Positions 1 through 18,476 of a DNA stretch of 44,376 bases are shown in pieces. The translations under genes and the position numbers were made by a program. The DNA is from a virus (lineage: Duplodnaviria > Heunggongvirae > Uroviricota > Caudoviricetes). Below the pieces are notes generated by a model. It was given only the letters and a program-made list of their open reading frames with translations, did not search any database and was not told where the DNA came from. Positions within the stretch are counted from its first letter, which is position 1; every line of letters begins with the position of its first letter. The DNA lies in IMG/VR virus record IMGVR_UViG_2541047881_000004, positions 1-44,376 of that record. One strand, written 5' to 3'.

Positions 1-906
1 GTGGATAGCGCACGCGCCCTTATTGCCCGGGGATGGGGAGTAAGCTTAGTCAGCCGTTGTCTCCGGGTGTCGCGTGCGCAGTTGCACGTAATTCTCAGAC
101 GAACCGATGACTGGAAAGATGGTCGCCGCAGCCGTCACTCAGATGATACGGATGTGCTTCTCCGTATACACCATGTTATCGGAGAGCTGCCCACGTATGG
201 TTATCGTCGGGTATGGGCGCTGCTTCGCAGACAGGCCGAACTTGATGGTATGCCTGCGATCAATGCCAAACGTGTTTACCGGATCATGCGCCAGAATGCG
301 CTGTTGCTTGAGCGAAAAACCGCTGTACCGCCATCGAAACGGGCACATACTGGCAAAGTGGCCGTGAAAGAAAGCAATCAACGATGGTGCTCTGACGGGT
401 TCGAGTTCCGCTGTGATAACGGAGAAAAACTGCGAGTCACGTTCGCGCTGGACTGCTGTGACCGTGAGGCACTGCACTGGGCAGTCACTACGGGCGGCTT
501 CGACAGTGAAACAGTACAGGACGTAATGCTGGGAGCGGTGGAACGCCGCTTCGGCAACGAGCTTCCGGCGTCTCCAGTAGAGTGGCTGACGGATAATGGT
601 TCATGCTACCGGGCTAATGAAACACGGCAGTTTGCCCGGATGTTGGGGCTTGAACCGAAGAACACGGCGGTGCGGAGTCCGGAGAGTAACGGCATAGCAG
701 AGAGCTTCGTGAAAACGATAAAGCGTGACTACATCAGTATCATGCCTAAACCAGACGGGTTAACGGCAGCAAAGAACCTTGCAGAGGCGTTCGAGCATTA
801 TAACGAATGGCATCCGCATAGTGCACTGGGTTATCGCTCGCCACGGGAATATCTGCGGCAGCAGGCCAGTAATGGGTTAAGTGATAACAGGTGTCTGGAA
901 ATATAG
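1..906 (+). CDS. insD: IS2 transposase OrfB (InsD), 5' end lies outside the window
   Basis: 301-aa ORF from the track; integrase-core transposase ending ...[31 protein letters not shown]. Confidence 0.9.
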
Positions 907-9700: not shown

Positions 9701-10240
9701 CCGGATACTGAACGGGCGCGGCGGCAGGTTATCCACCACCACCGAGGCCAGATACTGTGAAGTGGTTTTACCCTTAATGGTGATGTCTTTTTCCGTCACC
9801 CAGCCACCGTTACGTTGTATCTGAACCAGCAGGCGGACTTCCGATGGATTCCTGTCCCCCTTTGAGGTGGTTTCCACCAGTGCCTGCACGCCGAAGGTAA
9901 AGCGCAGACGGTCGATGTTTGCAGACGTGATGGTCCGGGTGATCGGCGTGTCATATTTCACTTCCGTACCCAGCACCGTCTCGGATCCGGAGGATTCAAA
10001 TCCCTCCGGCGGTGTCTGCTCCTGCTCACCGGCCCGGAACACCACCGTGACGCCGGAGATATTGGTATTCCCCTCACTGTCCAGCACCGGTGTACTGTTC
10101 AGCAGCACGCTTTTTAATCCATCCACCGGACCTTCTATCGGCCCTTCGCTGATGGCATCGATCACACTCAGTAACTGCGTGGATTTCAGGTTGTCCTTCG
10201 CTTCGCGCGGGGTATGCCCCTTACTGCTGCCTTTACCCAT
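6761..10240 (-). CDS. J: Tail tip host-specificity protein J
   Basis: 1159 aa; lambda J-like over its whole length as recalled. Confidence 0.95.
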
Positions 10241-10300
10241 TCGTCATGCTCCATAAACGACAAAACCGCCCGCAGGCGGTTTCACATAAAACATTTTGCA

Positions 10301-10972
10301 TCAGCGACCAATCACCACAACCTGACCACCATCCCCTTCGTCTGCCGTGCTGATCTCCTGAGAAACCACCCGCGACCCCACACGCATTTCACCGTACAGA
10401 ACAGGCAAAACATTGCCCTGGGCAACCATGTTATCCAGTGAGGAGAAATAGGTGTTCTGCTTACCGTTATCCGTTGTCTGTGTGCGGGGAGTTCTGGCTT
10501 TCGGTGCCAGCATCTGAGCCACACCGCCGAGCACCATACTGGCACCGAGAGAAAACAGAATGCCGGTCATACCACCGGCCCCAATGGCTGTCCCCCATGC
10601 TGCAAGGGTGGCTCCGGCGGTAAAGAATGATCCGGCAATGGCGGCTGCCCCCAGGACAATCTGGAATACGCCACCTGACTTGGCCCCGGCGACTCTGGGA
10701 ACGATATGAATCACAGCGCCGTCAGGCAGAGCCTCATGTAACTGCGCCGTTAATCCGGACGTGCTGACATCCTGCCCGGCAATACGTACCTGATACCAGC
10801 CGTCGCTCAGTTTCTGACGAAACGAAGGGAGCTGTGTGGCCAGCGCCCGGATGGCTTCAGCCCCCGTTTTCACACGAAGGTCGATGCGGCGGCCAAATCG
10901 TTGTAAATCCCCGTAAAGGCAGATGCGTGCCATGCCCGGTGACGCCAGAGGGAGTGTGTGCGTCGCTGCCAT
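10301..10972 (-). CDS. I: Tail assembly protein I
   Basis: 223 aa, MAATHTLPLASPGMARICLYGDLQRFGRR..., essentially lambda I; overlaps the 3' end of K by about 100 nt as in lambda. Confidence 0.95.
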   Translation of the reverse strand: MAATHTLPLASPGMARICLYGDLQRFGRRIDLRVKTGAEAIRALATQLPSFRQKLSDGWYQVRIAGQDVSTSGLTAQLHEALPDGAVIHIVPRVAGAKSGGVFQIVLGAAAIAGSFFTAGATLAAWGTAIGAGGMTGILFSLGASMVLGGVAQMLAPKARTPRTQTTDNGKQNTYFSSLDNMVAQGNVLPVLYGEMRVGSRVVSQEISTADEGDGGQVVVIGR

Positions 10973-13984: not shown

Positions 13985-14313
13985 CAGTTCACCACCTGTT
14001 CAAACTCTGCGCTGAACTCAACACGCAGCATACTGACCCGCGACGACCATTTTGCGCAGGTCACCTTTATCTGCCGCCACTCATAAGGCGGCGTCCACAG
14101 AAAGGCTTTCCAGCCCCCGTGCTCTTCCAGAAATGACTCCAGTACCGTGGCCTCCTCACGGGGGACAGAAAGCGTCACGCTGTACGTTTTCAGGTTGGCA
14201 TTCAGCCCGGCAGGCGCTCGCTGTGAATAGCCATCACCAAAGCGCACCTTTCTTACAGAAGGGGCCGAAGCCACATCCATACCGGGTTTCACTTTCCAGC
14301 GGAAGGTTTTCAT
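13984..14313 (-). CDS. M: Tail tip protein M
   Basis: 109 aa, lambda M-like; stop overlaps the L start. Confidence 0.95.
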   Translation of the reverse strand: MKTFRWKVKPGMDVASAPSVRKVRFGDGYSQRAPAGLNANLKTYSVTLSVPREEATVLESFLEEHGGWKAFLWTPPYEWRQIKVTCAKWSSRVSMLRVEFSAEFEQVVN

Positions 14314-16889
14314 CGTCCACCTCCGGAGAACAGGCCACCATCACGCATCTGCCCGGTCACAACATCCATTGCCGCCTTACGGGCTACGTCATAAACCGCC
14401 TTCAGCGCCTGTGGCCCTATCTGACCGTTCGTGCCGTCGTTGTTAATCACCACATGGTTATTCTGCTCAAACTTCCCGGACGCCTGCGACCGGCTGTCCG
14501 CCATGCTGCCCGGTGTACCGACATAACCGCCGGTGGCATAGCCGCGCATCAGCCGGTAAAGATTCCCCACGCCAATCCGGCTGGTTGCCTCCTTCGTGAA
14601 GACAAATTCACCACGATGAACAATCCCCGCAGGCTCATATTTGCCGCCGGTTCCCGTAAATCCTCCGGTCGCAAAATGGAATTTCGCCGCAGCTGCCTGA
14701 ATGGCTGTACCGCCTGACGCCGATGCGCCACCACCAACAGCTCCGCCAATGGCGCTGCCAATACTCCCGACAATCCCCACCATTGCCTGCTTAAGCAGAA
14801 TTTCTGTCATCATGGACAGCACGGAACGGGTGAAGCTGCGCCAGTTCTGCTCACTGCCGGTCAGCATCGCCGCCATATTCTGTGCAATACCATCAAAGGT
14901 CTGCGTGGCTGCACTTTTAACCTGCGACATACTGTCCGTGGCGCTCTCTTCCCACTCACTCCAGCCGGACTTCAGGCCTGCCATCCAGCTCCCGCGAAGC
15001 TGGTCTTCAGCCGCCCAGGTCTTTTTCTGCTCTGACATGACGTTATTCAGCGCCAGCGGATTATCGCCATACTGTTCCTTCAGGCGCTGTTCCGTGGCTT
15101 CCCGTTCTGCCTGCCGGTCAGTCAGCCCCCGGCTTTTCGCATCAATGGCGGCCCGTTTTGCCCGTTGCTGCTGTGCGAATTTATCCGCCTGCTGCGCCAG
15201 CGCGTTCAGGCGCTCCTGATACGTAACCTTGTCGCCAAGTGCAGCCAGCTGGCGTTTGTACTCCAGCGTCTCATCTTTATGCGCCAGCAGGGATTTCTCC
15301 TGTGCAGACAGCTGGCGACGTTGCGCCGCCTCCTCCAGTACCGCGAACTGACTTTCTGCCTTCCACAAATCCCGGCGCTGCTGGCTGATTTTCTCATTCG
15401 CTCCGGCATGCTTCTCCAGCATCCGGAGTTCTGCCTGAAGCGTCAGCAGGGCAGCATGAGCACTGTCTTCCTGACGATCGCCCGCAGACACTTTCACGCC
15501 GGACTGCTTCGGCTTTTTCAGCGTCGCTTCATAGTCCTTTTTCGCCGCCGCCATCAGCGTGTTGTAATCTGCCTGCAGGATTTTTCCGTCTTTCAGAGCC
15601 TTATTCAGTTCCTCCTGGCGGGCGGTATATTTCTCCAGCGGTGTCTGCAGGCGTTCGTAAGCCTTCTGCGCCTCTTCGGTATATTTCAGCCGTGATGCCT
15701 CAGACTCGGCCCAGTCCTTTGCTGCCATCTCTCTGGCCTTTTCAAGATCGGCCTGCAACGTGGCGGCTGAAAGCCCAAGTTGCGCATTCGCTCTGTCCTC
15801 CCATGCTCCCCGGAGATTGGCAAGAAATGCTGAGGTTTTACCGCGCCGGTGGCTCCGGCTCTGATACCACTGCCATTTTTTGTCCGCCTCATCAAAAGCC
15901 TTTTCTGCTTTCTCCAGCATTCCCTGGGCAGTGTCCGGGCGACCAATATCCAGCACCGAATCCCACATGGATTTGAATGCCCGCGCTGTCCTGTCTGCCC
16001 AGGTCTCCAGCGTGCCCATGTTCTCTTTCAGGCGGCGGGTCTGGTCATCAAACCCTTTCGTTGCGGCTTCGTTCGCCGCCTGCAATGCCCCGGCTTCATC
16101 TCCGGAACGCTGCAACTGAGCAACATACGCAATCTGCTCCGCCGTCACGTTATGGAACTGACGTGCCATCGCTGTCAGTCCCGACGTCGGGTCTGTGGTC
16201 AGCTTCCCGAAGGCTTCAGCGACCTTGTCCACCTCCACGCCGGATGCAGAGGAGAAACGCGCCACACTCTGGCTGATCGCCTCAAACTGCTCACCACCAC
16301 GCACACCGGCATTCACCAGCGCCGTCAGTGACTCGCTGGTCTGGTTAAACGTCAGCCCTGCCGCCTGCCCGGCTCTGGACAGGGCCAGAATACGATCTGC
16401 CGTCAGTCCCGCCTGATTGCCGGAAAGGACCAGCGTTTTGTTGAAATCGGACAGGGTTGAGTTGCCCTGATACCAGGCATACGCCAGCGCACCGGTCGCC
16501 ACCGCCAGCGAGGTGGCCCCCACCATCGGCAGGGTGATCGCACCGGCAAGCCCCCTGAACATGGGGATCATCCCGCCGAAGGAGTCCTTAACCTGACCAC
16601 CCTGTTGCAGCAGGATCAGCCACGGACTTTGCCCGCCTGCAAGCTGCGTGGCCACGTCGGTGAACTGTGCAGGCAGCATACGCATGGCGGCTTTATACTG
16701 CCCGACGGAAATCCCCGCTTTCTGTGCAGCCAGCGCCTGTCGGCTCAGCGACTGTTCAACGACTGCCGCTGTTTTTTTCGCATCAGTTTCCGTACCGGAA
16801 AAATGACGCCTGACTCTGGCCATCTGCTCGTCAAATCTGGCCGCATCCAGACTCAAATCAACGACCAGATCGCCTACCGGTTCAGCCAT
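14310..16889 (-). CDS. H: Tail tape measure protein H
   Basis: 859 aa, MAEPVGDLVVDLSLDAARFDEQMARVRRHF..., lambda H-like. Confidence 0.95.
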   Translation of the reverse strand: MAEPVGDLVVDLSLDAARFDEQMARVRRHFSGTETDAKKTAAVVEQSLSRQALAAQKAGISVGQYKAAMRMLPAQFTDVATQLAGGQSPWLILLQQGGQVKDSFGGMIPMFRGLAGAITLPMVGATSLAVATGALAYAWYQGNSTLSDFNKTLVLSGNQAGLTADRILALSRAGQAAGLTFNQTSESLTALVNAGVRGGEQFEAISQSVARFSSASGVEVDKVAEAFGKLTTDPTSGLTAMARQFHNVTAEQIAYVAQLQRSGDEAGALQAANEAATKGFDDQTRRLKENMGTLETWADRTARAFKSMWDSVLDIGRPDTAQGMLEKAEKAFDEADKKWQWYQSRSHRRGKTSAFLANLRGAWEDRANAQLGLSAATLQADLEKAREMAAKDWAESEASRLKYTEEAQKAYERLQTPLEKYTARQEELNKALKDGKILQADYNTLMAAAKKDYEATLKKPKQSGVKVSAGDRQEDSAHAALLTLQAELRMLEKHAGANEKISQQRRDLWKAESQFAVLEEAAQRRQLSAQEKSLLAHKDETLEYKRQLAALGDKVTYQERLNALAQQADKFAQQQRAKRAAIDAKSRGLTDRQAEREATEQRLKEQYGDNPLALNNVMSEQKKTWAAEDQLRGSWMAGLKSGWSEWEESATDSMSQVKSAATQTFDGIAQNMAAMLTGSEQNWRSFTRSVLSMMTEILLKQAMVGIVGSIGSAIGGAVGGGASASGGTAIQAAAAKFHFATGGFTGTGGKYEPAGIVHRGEFVFTKEATSRIGVGNLYRLMRGYATGGYVGTPGSMADSRSQASGKFEQNNHVVINNDGTNGQIGPQALKAVYDVARKAAMDVVTGQMRDGGLFSGGGR

Positions 16890-17720
16890 ACCGGACTCCT
16901 CCTGCGATCCCTTCTGATACTGTCATCAGCATTACGTCATCCTCCGTCATGTCCGCCACATCCGGGGAAACGGGGATAACTTCATTCCCGTCCGGACCAA
17001 AGCGGACGCCTCCGGCAAGCCCTGCCGCTTTCTGCATCAGCACATCATCTTCAGGCTCTTCGTCAGCCTCACGCCGGTTCAGCAGACTGAAATCCAGCGG
17101 ATGCATATCCGGATCGCTGAAAAACAGGCTGAGCACGGTGTACGTCAGCCCGGAAAAGTGCATATCCAGCAGAACATCATGAAAATAATGGGTACTGTAA
17201 AAGCGGTGCCAGTCGGCATACTCCGTGGATGACATCCCGGCAAGCATGGCACGCCAGTCGGGTCGCCCCATCTCTCGCGCCAGTTTCAGGGCAAAACTCA
17301 GCTCACCATCGAACACTTTCCCGCAGAAACAGGCTCTGCAGGCCCGGCGTCCTCTGTCTGTTCAGGAGCATCATTCACCACAAACTCATACATACCGGAC
17401 AGCCGGTACACCACGTTTTCAGCATGAGAAATTGCCTCCGTGGGCCAGGTGGTAAGCACTTCCTGCTCAATCTGTTTAACGGCTTCATTCATAGAAGGCA
17501 GCTTTGTCTTCTGCGGATGGTTATGCCACAGGGACATCGCCACCACAAAAGCGCCGGTTCTGATGGCGTCTTCCACAGTAAACTTCCGGTTGCTGTCTGA
17601 CTCCGCCTGTTCTGCCTGTCGTTTCATCAGGGCGAGATGCTCAATACGCTGCAGGGCTGACAGTTCAGAAAGCGTGACGGTCACACCGTTATGTTCAAAT
17701 GATTCGGTTTTCAGGAACAT
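16882..17720 (-). CDS. T: Tail assembly chaperone G-T, made by a -1 programmed ribosomal frameshift from G into the T frame
   Basis: T-frame ORF 16882..17316 (…VFDGELSFALKLAREMGRPDW) overlaps the 3' end of G; slippery heptamer G GGA AAG at 17316-17322 (minus strand). Confidence 0.85.
17298..17720 (-). CDS. G: Tail assembly chaperone G
   Basis: 140 aa, lambda G-like, ending ...SAGKCSMVS. Confidence 0.95.
   Translation of the reverse strand: MFLKTESFEHNGVTVTLSELSALQRIEHLALMKRQAEQAESDSNRKFTVEDAIRTGAFVVAMSLWHNHPQKTKLPSMNEAVKQIEQEVLTTWPTEAISHAENVVYRLSGMYEFVVNDAPEQTEDAGPAEPVSAGKCSMVS
17316..17322 (-). promoter_or_regulatory. G-T -1 frameshift slippery site GGGAAAG
   Basis: Read directly on the minus strand in the G frame as G GGA AAG, as in lambda. 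Confidence 0.85.
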
Positions 17721-17735
17721 CGCTGACTCTCCGGA

Positions 17736-18476
17736 TTAACTGGCGGTGACGTTGATTTCTGCAACCGCAGCAAGTTCACCATTACCGGATACGACCGGAA
17801 TGTTGACCTTGCCTGCAGCAACACCTTTCACGGTGATGGTCATACCACTGACCGACACGGTGGCTTTTGTTTTATCCGCAGACACCGCACGGAAGCTCTT
17901 GTCGGTTGCGCCTTCCGGCTGGAATGCCACGGTCAGCGTCGTGCTCTGCCCTTTCACCACCGAGGTGCTGGCAGGCGTCACGGTCATGCCGGTTGCCGCT
18001 GTTACCGTGCTGCGATCTTCTGCCATCGACGGACGTCCTACGTTGGTGACTTTCACCGTGCGGGTAATCACTTCCTTCGCCGTCACCGCCTTACCGATAC
18101 TGCTGACCCAGCCGCGGAACACATCGACCGTGCCGTTCGGGAAGCGGATTTTATAGGCACGGGTATCGCCTTCATTAAACCACGCCAGCAGCGCCTGCTG
18201 CCCCTGCTCTCCGGGCATCCACGCCAGCGTGAAGCTGGTATCTCCGGCAGATTTCTGCCCCTGCCCGGTCGCAGTCCAGTCTGCATCTTCATCATCGAGA
18301 TAGCTGTCGTCATAGGACTCAGCGGTCAGTTCGCCGGGCGTCAGGTCTTTAACTTTTGCCAGACGCGACCAGTCAACGTCTGAAAGCGGATTCGCATAAG
18401 GGTCACCGTTCCCCTTATAAACCCACAGGGTGGTCCCGGCACCTTTCACCGGTGCCAGAGGATTTGGTGTTGGCAT
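17736..18476 (-). CDS. V: Major tail tube protein V
   Basis: Lambda V-like with C-terminal Ig-like domain; start set at [14 protein letters not shown] by comparison with lambda V. Confidence 0.9.

What the first reader, a model, noticed from the sequence alone, without database searches (positions are those of the whole stretch)
16882..17720. Conserved G-T -1 programmed frameshift site
The slippery heptamer G GGA AAG lies seven codons before the G stop, with the T frame open downstream. This is the textbook arrangement producing the G-T tail-assembly chaperone fusion at low frequency. It is reported so that the T ORF is not mistaken for an independent gene.
Basis: partly seen in the sequence, partly recalled or inferred. 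Interest (0 to 1): 0.2.

Follow-up and report, generated by a model that had tools for sequence, protein, structure and literature searches.

The report
Lambda G-T tail chaperone frameshift site
This is the well-known lambda-phage "slippery" site, where a small share of ribosomes slip back one base to make the G-T tail-assembly fusion protein; it is present and intact in this lambda-like prophage, and it is ordinary.

Summary
Confirmed and already known. On the minus strand, gene G (17720..17298, 140 aa) contains GGGAAAG at 17322..17316. It is read as G GGA AAG in the G frame, and GGA is the seventh codon before the TGA stop. From the slip point the -1 frame stays open for 144 codons to the TGA at 16884..16882, giving a 279-aa G-T fusion. 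The 839-nt stretch is 97.7% identical to lambda 9711-10549 (genes G and T); there are 19 base changes, none within the heptamer. The fusion matches Pfam Phage_TAC_2 (protein G) and Phage_tail_T. It lies between the major tail gene V and the tape-measure gene H, whose start overlaps the T stop. Seventy-four IMG/VR loci (58 distinct sequences, 93-99% identical) all keep the heptamer at the same position. More distant relatives have GGGAAAG, AAAAAAG or GGAAAAG at the aligned position: seven codons before the G stop in five of the six, two codons before it in Klebsiella phage Kp4865-4. Variable sites in T fall at the third position of the -1 frame (22 of 27). No stimulatory RNA structure was detected. 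The heptamer alone occurs at chance frequency; position, frame, homology and conservation make the case. Interest is very low.

The parts
17298..17720 (-). Gene G (tail assembly chaperone gpG), 140 codons plus TGA stop at 17300..17298
   Evidence: ORF listing. Five aa differences from lambda G: L59V, Q73K, M74L, N117D, T138M. Pfam PF06894 Phage_TAC_2, E=1.6e-58.
17316..17322 (-). Slippery heptamer G GGA AAG (zero-frame phase); -1 re-pairing reads GGG AAA
   Evidence: Identical to lambda, HK630 and phiSTEC1575. Invariant in 74 IMG/VR loci.
16882..17316 (-). T segment: -1 frame, 144 codons plus TGA (16884..16882), reached only by the frameshift
   Evidence: Pfam PF06223 Phage_tail_T at fusion residues 164-239. 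22 of 27 variable sites lie at codon position 3 of this frame.
16882..17720 (-). G-T fusion coding region, join(17720..17316, 17316..16882), 279 aa
   Evidence: Conceptual translation. Full-length match to PHROG 32165, residues 1-278, E=2.4e-125. 98% aa identity to the lambda GT fusion.
17727..17732 (-). Shine-Dalgarno-like GGAGAG, 6 nt upstream of the G ATG
   Evidence: Read directly from the sequence.
16896..16902 (-). Shine-Dalgarno GGAGGAG for gene H, embedded in the last codons of T (Gly-Gly-Val)
   Evidence: Read directly from the sequence. The H ATG at 16889..16887 overlaps the T stop (ATGGCTGA).
14310..16889 (-). Gene H, tape-measure protein (859 aa), the binding partner of gpG and of the G part of gpGT
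   Evidence: Pfam TMP_2 and Tape_meas_lam_C.
17736..18476 (-). Gene V, major tail tube protein, the partner of the T domain; the mechanical ORF extends to 18506 but the lambda-equivalent start is 18476
   Evidence: Pfam Phage_TTP_12 and Big_2. The lambda V CDS is 741 nt.

Best explanation
This is the lambda-type G/GT programmed -1 ribosomal frameshift in a lambdoid prophage, encoded on the minus strand. Most ribosomes translating G read GCG GGA AAG and continue to the TGA seven codons after GGA, releasing the 140-aa gpG. A small share slip back one base on G GGA AAG, so that the Gly and Lys tRNAs re-pair with GGG AAA. In lambda this share is about 4%, which gives a gpG:gpGT ratio of about 30:1. 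These ribosomes continue in the -1 frame for 144 codons and make the 279-aa gpGT. gpG and the G part of gpGT coat the tape-measure protein H. The T part recruits the major tail protein V so that the tube polymerises around H. Neither protein is found in the finished virion. T has no translation start of its own. Shown here: the sequence anatomy, the homology, the conservation and the coding constraint in the -1 frame. Inferred from lambda: the slippage itself, its frequency and the chaperone role.
For: Heptamer, phase and distance to the stop were verified. The 839 nt are 97.7% identical to lambda G-T, with 19 substitutions and none in the heptamer or the 7 nt after it. The fusion carries PF06894 plus PF06223 and matches the fusion-length PHROG 32165 end to end. 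Gene order is V-G-T-H, with the H start overlapping the T stop. All 74 IMG/VR loci with an intact G (58 distinct sequences, 93-99.4% identical) keep GGGAAAG 7 codons before the stop with a 144-codon extension. Six relatives with 47-73% fusion aa identity keep a Lys-AAG slip site at the aligned column (K135 invariant): PhiR12_2 GGGAAAG, ASU11 and Stx1_9793 AAAAAAG, N15, phi80 and Kp4865-4 GGAAAAG. In five of them the site lies seven codons before the G stop; in Kp4865-4 the stop follows two codons after the start of the site. The N15 record annotates its site as the -1 slippery sequence, and the phage 434 record annotates the joined GT CDS. T-frame variable sites: 22 at position 3, 4 at position 1 and 1 at position 2. 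The C-to-T change at G-T position 413 is T138M in G but synonymous in the T frame. Only 46 of 20,000 shuffles of the T segment lack an in-frame stop. Literature: lambda GGGAAAG frameshift of about 4%, the role of tRNA-Lys(UUU), the 30:1 ratio and the chaperone model (PMC3296357; PMC5009743).
Against: No protein or ribosome-profiling data exist for this sequence, so the fusion product is inferred. The heptamer by itself occurs at chance frequency in the window (7 against 5.8 expected). No stimulatory RNA structure was detected downstream of or around the site (z = -0.57 and -0.37). That fits a low-efficiency site but gives no independent support. Whether this prophage is inducible was not established; an IS3-family transposase ORF sits at the window's low end.
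Confidence: 0.97

Rival explanations
1. T is an independent gene translated from its own start, either the GTG at 17316 or the ATG at 17271, as many database records annotate it.
For: Mechanical ORF calling gives a 144-aa GTG-started ORF. Lambda J02459 and RefSeq list T as a separate CDS. Other records start it at the internal ATG.
Against: Neither start has a usable Shine-Dalgarno sequence. GGGA lies only 2 nt before the GTG, and GAGAG abuts the ATG (sequence). By contrast, G and H have GGAG-type sites at a spacing of 6 nt. Conservation of the T frame runs continuously back to the slip site, with K135 followed by the conserved V/A-F/L-x-G/S-E-L. The literature describes only gpG and the frameshift-derived gpGT as products of this region.
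Confidence: 0.02
2. The frame change is made by RNA polymerase slippage (a one-base deletion in the transcript) rather than by the ribosome.
For: The site contains short G3 and A3 runs. Some relatives have an A6 run (AAAAAAG).
Against: By established knowledge, runs of three are far shorter than the homopolymer tracts known to support transcriptional slippage. The X XXY YYZ phase in the zero frame is conserved, which matters for tRNA re-pairing but not for polymerase slippage. In lambda, frameshift frequency responds to tRNA-Lys U34 modification (PMC3296357).
Confidence: 0.01

Closest known systems
Bacteriophage lambda G / GT programmed -1 frameshift (J02459 9711-10549; Levin, Hendrix and Casjens 1993; Xu, Hendrix and Duda 2004, 2013, 2014)
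   Same: The same genes, heptamer G GGA AAG, phase, seven-codon distance to the G stop, 144-codon T frame, V-G-T-H order and H start overlapping the T stop. Nucleotide identity is 97.7% and fusion aa identity 98%.
   Different: There are 19 base substitutions. The fusion differs at L59V, Q73K, M74L, N117D and A251V; gpG alone also differs at T138M. The first change after the heptamer is C to T, 8 nt downstream; it is shared with phage phiSTEC1575-Stx2k. The neighbouring H is 859 aa, against lambda's 853.
N15 gp14/gp15 and phi80 gp13/gp14 tail chaperone frameshift
   Same: Homologous G and T proteins with 47-53% fusion identity. The slip site is at the aligned Lys codon, seven codons before the stop, and T runs into the tape-measure gene.
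   Different: Their heptamer is G GAA AAG, which is not a canonical X XXY YYZ. Their T is about 30 aa shorter and carries a single copy of the C-terminal GGVRYG motif.
E. coli dnaX -1 frameshift (A AAA AAG)
   Same: A -1 slip that relies on the shift-prone single E. coli tRNA-Lys on an AAG codon (PMC5009743).
   Different: According to the review, dnaX has a 3' stem-loop stimulator; from my own knowledge it also has an upstream Shine-Dalgarno-like stimulator and runs at about 50%. No structure was detected here, and the lambda rate is about 4%. The proteins are unrelated.

Membership tests
Lambda-type G/GT tail assembly chaperone frameshift (Xu et al. 2004 arrangement) | Two overlapping ORFs lying between the major tail protein gene and the tape-measure gene | tested here: met
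   V (17736..18476) - G - T - H (14310..16889), all on the minus strand; Pfam assignments, ORFs.
Lambda-type G/GT tail assembly chaperone frameshift (Xu et al. 2004 arrangement) | [quoted passage not shown] | tested here: met
   G GGA AAG at 17322..17316, seven codons before the TGA.
Lambda-type G/GT tail assembly chaperone frameshift (Xu et al. 2004 arrangement) | Downstream ORF open in the -1 frame from the slip site and under protein-coding constraint | tested here: met
   144 open codons. 46 of 20,000 shuffles are stop-free. 22 of 27 variable sites lie at codon position 3 of the -1 frame.
Lambda-type G/GT tail assembly chaperone frameshift (Xu et al. 2004 arrangement) | Downstream ORF lacks its own ribosome-binding site and start | tested here: inconclusive
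   By inspection there is no well-spaced Shine-Dalgarno sequence before the GTG at 17316 or the ATG at 17271. Absence of initiation cannot be proved from sequence.
Lambda-type G/GT tail assembly chaperone frameshift (Xu et al. 2004 arrangement) | Sequence homology to gpG and gpT | tested here: met
   PF06894 E=1.6e-58 and PF06223 E=6.6e-14, both above their curated cut-offs. 98% aa identity to the lambda fusion.
Lambda-type G/GT tail assembly chaperone frameshift (Xu et al. 2004 arrangement) | Slip site conserved in position among relatives | tested here: met
   74 of 74 intact IMG/VR loci. All six diverged phages keep a slip site at the aligned Lys codon; five have it seven codons before the G stop, and Kp4865-4 has an earlier stop.
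Lambda-type G/GT tail assembly chaperone frameshift (Xu et al. 2004 arrangement) | A low-abundance G-T fusion protein is actually made and is needed for tail assembly | not testable with these tools
   Known for lambda only (PMC3296357, PMC5009743). It requires a western blot, mass spectrometry or genetics on this sequence.

The most novel reading that the evidence does not exclude
The most novel reading not excluded is that this allele shifts at a different rate from lambda, or has an altered gpG C-terminus. It has a C-to-T change 8 nt after the heptamer, which gives T138M in gpG and is silent in T. A different shift rate would change the gpG:gpGT ratio that tail assembly depends on. Nothing observed here points that way: the same change occurs in a deposited phage genome (phiSTEC1575-Stx2k).
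Probability: 0.05. Interest if true: 0.12.

Novelty: already known. Interest (0 to 1): 0.04.

Why it matters
The value is for annotation only. The correct products of this stretch are gpG (140 aa) and the 279-aa gpGT made by ribosomal slippage, not an independent T protein. Public records are inconsistent on this point. Matches to the surrounding 6-kb tail module occur in 4151 of 5426 complete E. coli genomes, so the annotation error is widely propagated. No new biology follows from this finding.

Tried and rejected
(1) A stimulatory RNA structure. Folding the 100 nt downstream and a 107-nt stretch spanning the site gave z = -0.57 and -0.37, no better than shuffles. No Shine-Dalgarno-like stimulator was seen upstream by inspection.

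(2) Rfam. No family reached its gathering score anywhere in the window. No tRNA genes were found.

(3) A solved structure of G or T. There was no PDB sequence match at E <= 0.01. No structure prediction was run, because it would not bear on the finding.

(4) Other frameshift candidates in the window. The next-ranked in-frame heptamers are CCCTTTC in a mechanical ORF antisense to V, and GGGAAAC at 34428 in the Dam methylase ORF. The -1 frame of the latter simply runs into the next, overlapping ORF (34132..34398). Both were judged chance.

(5) Plus-strand ORFs across 16882-17720. Three antisense ORFs had no PHROG match. One, inside H/T (16605..16979), matches an unknown-function PHROG and is probably a family of spurious antisense gene calls. 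Codon-position variation supports the minus-strand frames.

(6) Promoters and terminators in 16500-18100. None were found above shuffle expectation.

(7) Four IMG/VR loci lack an intact G: L012, L013 and L014 carry apparent indels that switch the reading frame, and L070 has an in-frame stop in G. L012 also lacks a usable slip site. These are decayed copies or assembly errors, not natural in-frame fusions.

Full report
**Observation.** Read on the minus strand, the stretch 17720..16882 begins with the ATG of a 140-codon ORF, MFLKTESFEHNG.... Near its end the sequence is GCG GGA AAG TGT TCG ATG GTG AGC TGA. The heptamer GGGAAAG occupies 17322..17316 in the phase G GGA AAG. GGA is the seventh codon before the TGA at 17300..17298. 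After a -1 slip the next codon is GTG at 17316. That frame stays open for 144 codons to the TGA at 16884..16882, giving a conceptual 279-aa fusion. The only omission is that everything lies on the minus strand.

**Is it more than chance?** The bare heptamer is not. It occurs 7 times in the window against 5.8 expected. The arrangement is.
- I scanned every mechanical ORF of at least 100 aa on both strands for in-frame X XXY YYZ heptamers. There were 31. This one has the longest -1 extension beyond the zero-frame stop (137 codons). It is also by far the nearest to its ORF's stop among the 15 top-ranked sites listed: 7 codons, against 39 or more.
- Only 46 of 20,000 composition-preserving shuffles of the T segment are free of in-frame stops.

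**What it is.** The 839 nt are 97.7% identical to lambda J02459 9711-10549, which that record annotates as G (140 aa) and T (144 aa).
- There are 19 substitutions, none in the heptamer or the seven bases after it.
- The fusion differs from lambda's at five residues: L59V, Q73K, M74L, N117D and A251V. gpG alone also has T138M. That change is synonymous in the T frame, a small sign that in the overlap the T frame is the more constrained one.
- The fusion matches Pfam PF06894 (lambda tail assembly chaperone G, residues 1-125) and PF06223 (minor tail protein T, residues 164-239). It also matches, end to end, PHROG 32165, a family of fusion-length proteins.
- Upstream lies V (tail tube). Downstream lies H (tape measure, 859 aa). 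The H ATG at 16889 overlaps the T stop (ATGGCTGA), and the H Shine-Dalgarno sequence GGAGGAG (16902..16896) is embedded in the last Gly-Gly-Val codons of T.
- The wider window is a mosaic lambdoid prophage. Its late genes are lambda-like at about 95-96% identity, its early region is HK97-like at 96.6%, and an IS3-family transposase ORF sits at the low end.

**Comparative evidence.**
- A scan of IMG/VR returned 80 loci. All 74 with an intact G (58 distinct G-T sequences, 93-99.4% identical to the window) carry GGGAAAG seven codons before the stop, with a 140-aa G and a 144-codon extension.
- Across the 59 distinct sequences (those 58 plus the window), 27% of G columns vary but only 6.5% of T columns do. 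In T, 22 of 27 variable sites sit at the third codon position of the -1 frame, so that frame is translated and under purifying selection. Columns 399-405, the heptamer, are invariant.
- Six more distant phages (47-73% fusion identity) keep a Lys-AAG slip site at the same aligned column. PhiR12_2 has GGGAAAG. ASU11 and an Stx1 phage have AAAAAAG. N15, phi80 and Klebsiella phage Kp4865-4 have GGAAAAG. Five have it seven codons before the G stop; in Kp4865-4 the G stop comes earlier, two codons after the start of the site.
- The N15 record labels its site as the -1 slippery sequence. The phage 434 record annotates the joined GT product.

**Mechanism.** Shown here are the anatomy, the homology, the conservation and the coding constraint. 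The rest is inferred from lambda.
- About 4% of ribosomes slip -1 on GGGAAAG.
- The Lys codons of both frames are read by the single tRNA-Lys(UUU), whose U34 modification tunes the rate (PMC3296357).
- G GGA AAG is among the shift-prone heptamers in E. coli.
- The resulting ratio of about 30:1 gpG:gpGT is needed for tail assembly.
- gpG and the G part of gpGT bind the tape measure, and the T part binds the major tail protein. Neither is in the virion (PMC5009743).

I found no stimulatory structure: z = -0.57 for the 100 nt downstream and -0.37 across the site. No Rfam family matched. This fits a low-efficiency, heptamer-driven shift.

**Rivals.**
- Independent translation of T is unlikely. Neither the GTG at 17316 nor the in-frame ATG at 17271 has a properly spaced Shine-Dalgarno sequence, whereas G and H each have one at 6 nt. 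Protein conservation also runs uninterrupted back to the slip codon.
- Transcriptional slippage is unlikely on runs of three. It would also not explain the conserved phase, or the dependence on tRNA modification reported for lambda.

**Comparison and novelty.** This is the lambda G/GT site itself, in a close allele. Every sequence-level defining feature of the family was tested and met. Production of the fusion cannot be tested with these tools.
- Matches to the surrounding 6-kb tail module occur in 4151 of 5426 complete E. coli genomes.
- The only practical point is annotation. Lambda J02459 and RefSeq list T as a free-standing CDS from the GTG. Other records start it at the internal ATG.
- The correct annotation is G plus a ribosomal-slippage join, join(17720..17316, 17316..16882) on the minus strand.

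**Verdict.** The feature is already known and of very low interest.

Noticed in passing
window 14310-16889 (-): The tape-measure gene H encodes 859 aa here, against 853 aa annotated in lambda J02459. An 859-aa-length H (2580 nt) is also annotated in E. coli EC14 and in phiSTEC1575-Stx2k. If tail length scales with H length, this would mean a marginally longer tail.
   Followed up: no
window 16885-16935 and 16996-17043 (-): Lambda-type T carries two copies of a C-terminal motif: VLMQKAAGLAGGVRFG and VMLMTVSEGIAGGVRYG. N15, phi80, ASU11 and Kp4865-4 have one copy and a T about 30 aa shorter. The last copy's GGA GGA codons double as the Shine-Dalgarno sequence of H.
   Followed up: partly
L004 1221-1227 (N15), L007 (phi80), L008 (Klebsiella phage Kp4865-4): These relatives have G GAA AAG at the homologous position. 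It is not a canonical X XXY YYZ heptamer, because the P-site GAA would re-pair with GGA. In Kp4865-4 the G stop follows only two codons after the start of the site. This suggests that the A-site Lys AAG slip is the essential part.
   Followed up: partly
whole window; 1-906 (+): The window is a mosaic lambdoid prophage. Tail and head genes are about 95-96% identical to lambda-like phages. The early region (about 28.5-44 kb) is 96.6% identical to HK97, with an Erf recombinase, an S24-type repressor and a Dam methylase. An IS3-family transposase ORF (rve domains) runs in from the low end of the window.
   Followed up: partly
window 16605-16979 (+): A mechanical ORF antisense to the H start and T end matches PHROG 18264 (unknown function, E=1.3e-23). 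This is probably a family built from spurious antisense gene calls in lambda-like genomes.
   Followed up: no
window 34305-34892 (-), heptamer at 34428: The Dam methylase ORF contains an in-frame GGGAAAC whose -1 frame runs 96 codons into the next, overlapping ORF (34132..34398). This was judged a chance configuration; from my own knowledge, AAC is not a shift-prone A-site codon in E. coli.
   Followed up: partly
L012, L013, L014, L070 (IMG/VR): Four related viral contigs have G-T regions without an intact G: apparent indels that switch the reading frame in L012, L013 and L014, and an in-frame stop in G in L070. They are decayed prophage copies or assembly errors.
   Followed up: partly
L001, L003, L010, L011, L092 (public records): Annotation of T is inconsistent. 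It is a separate CDS from the GTG in lambda J02459 and RefSeq NZ_CP060924. It runs from an internal ATG in OQ243220 and PP925829. It is a joined GT CDS in the phage 434 record OL657226.
   Followed up: yes
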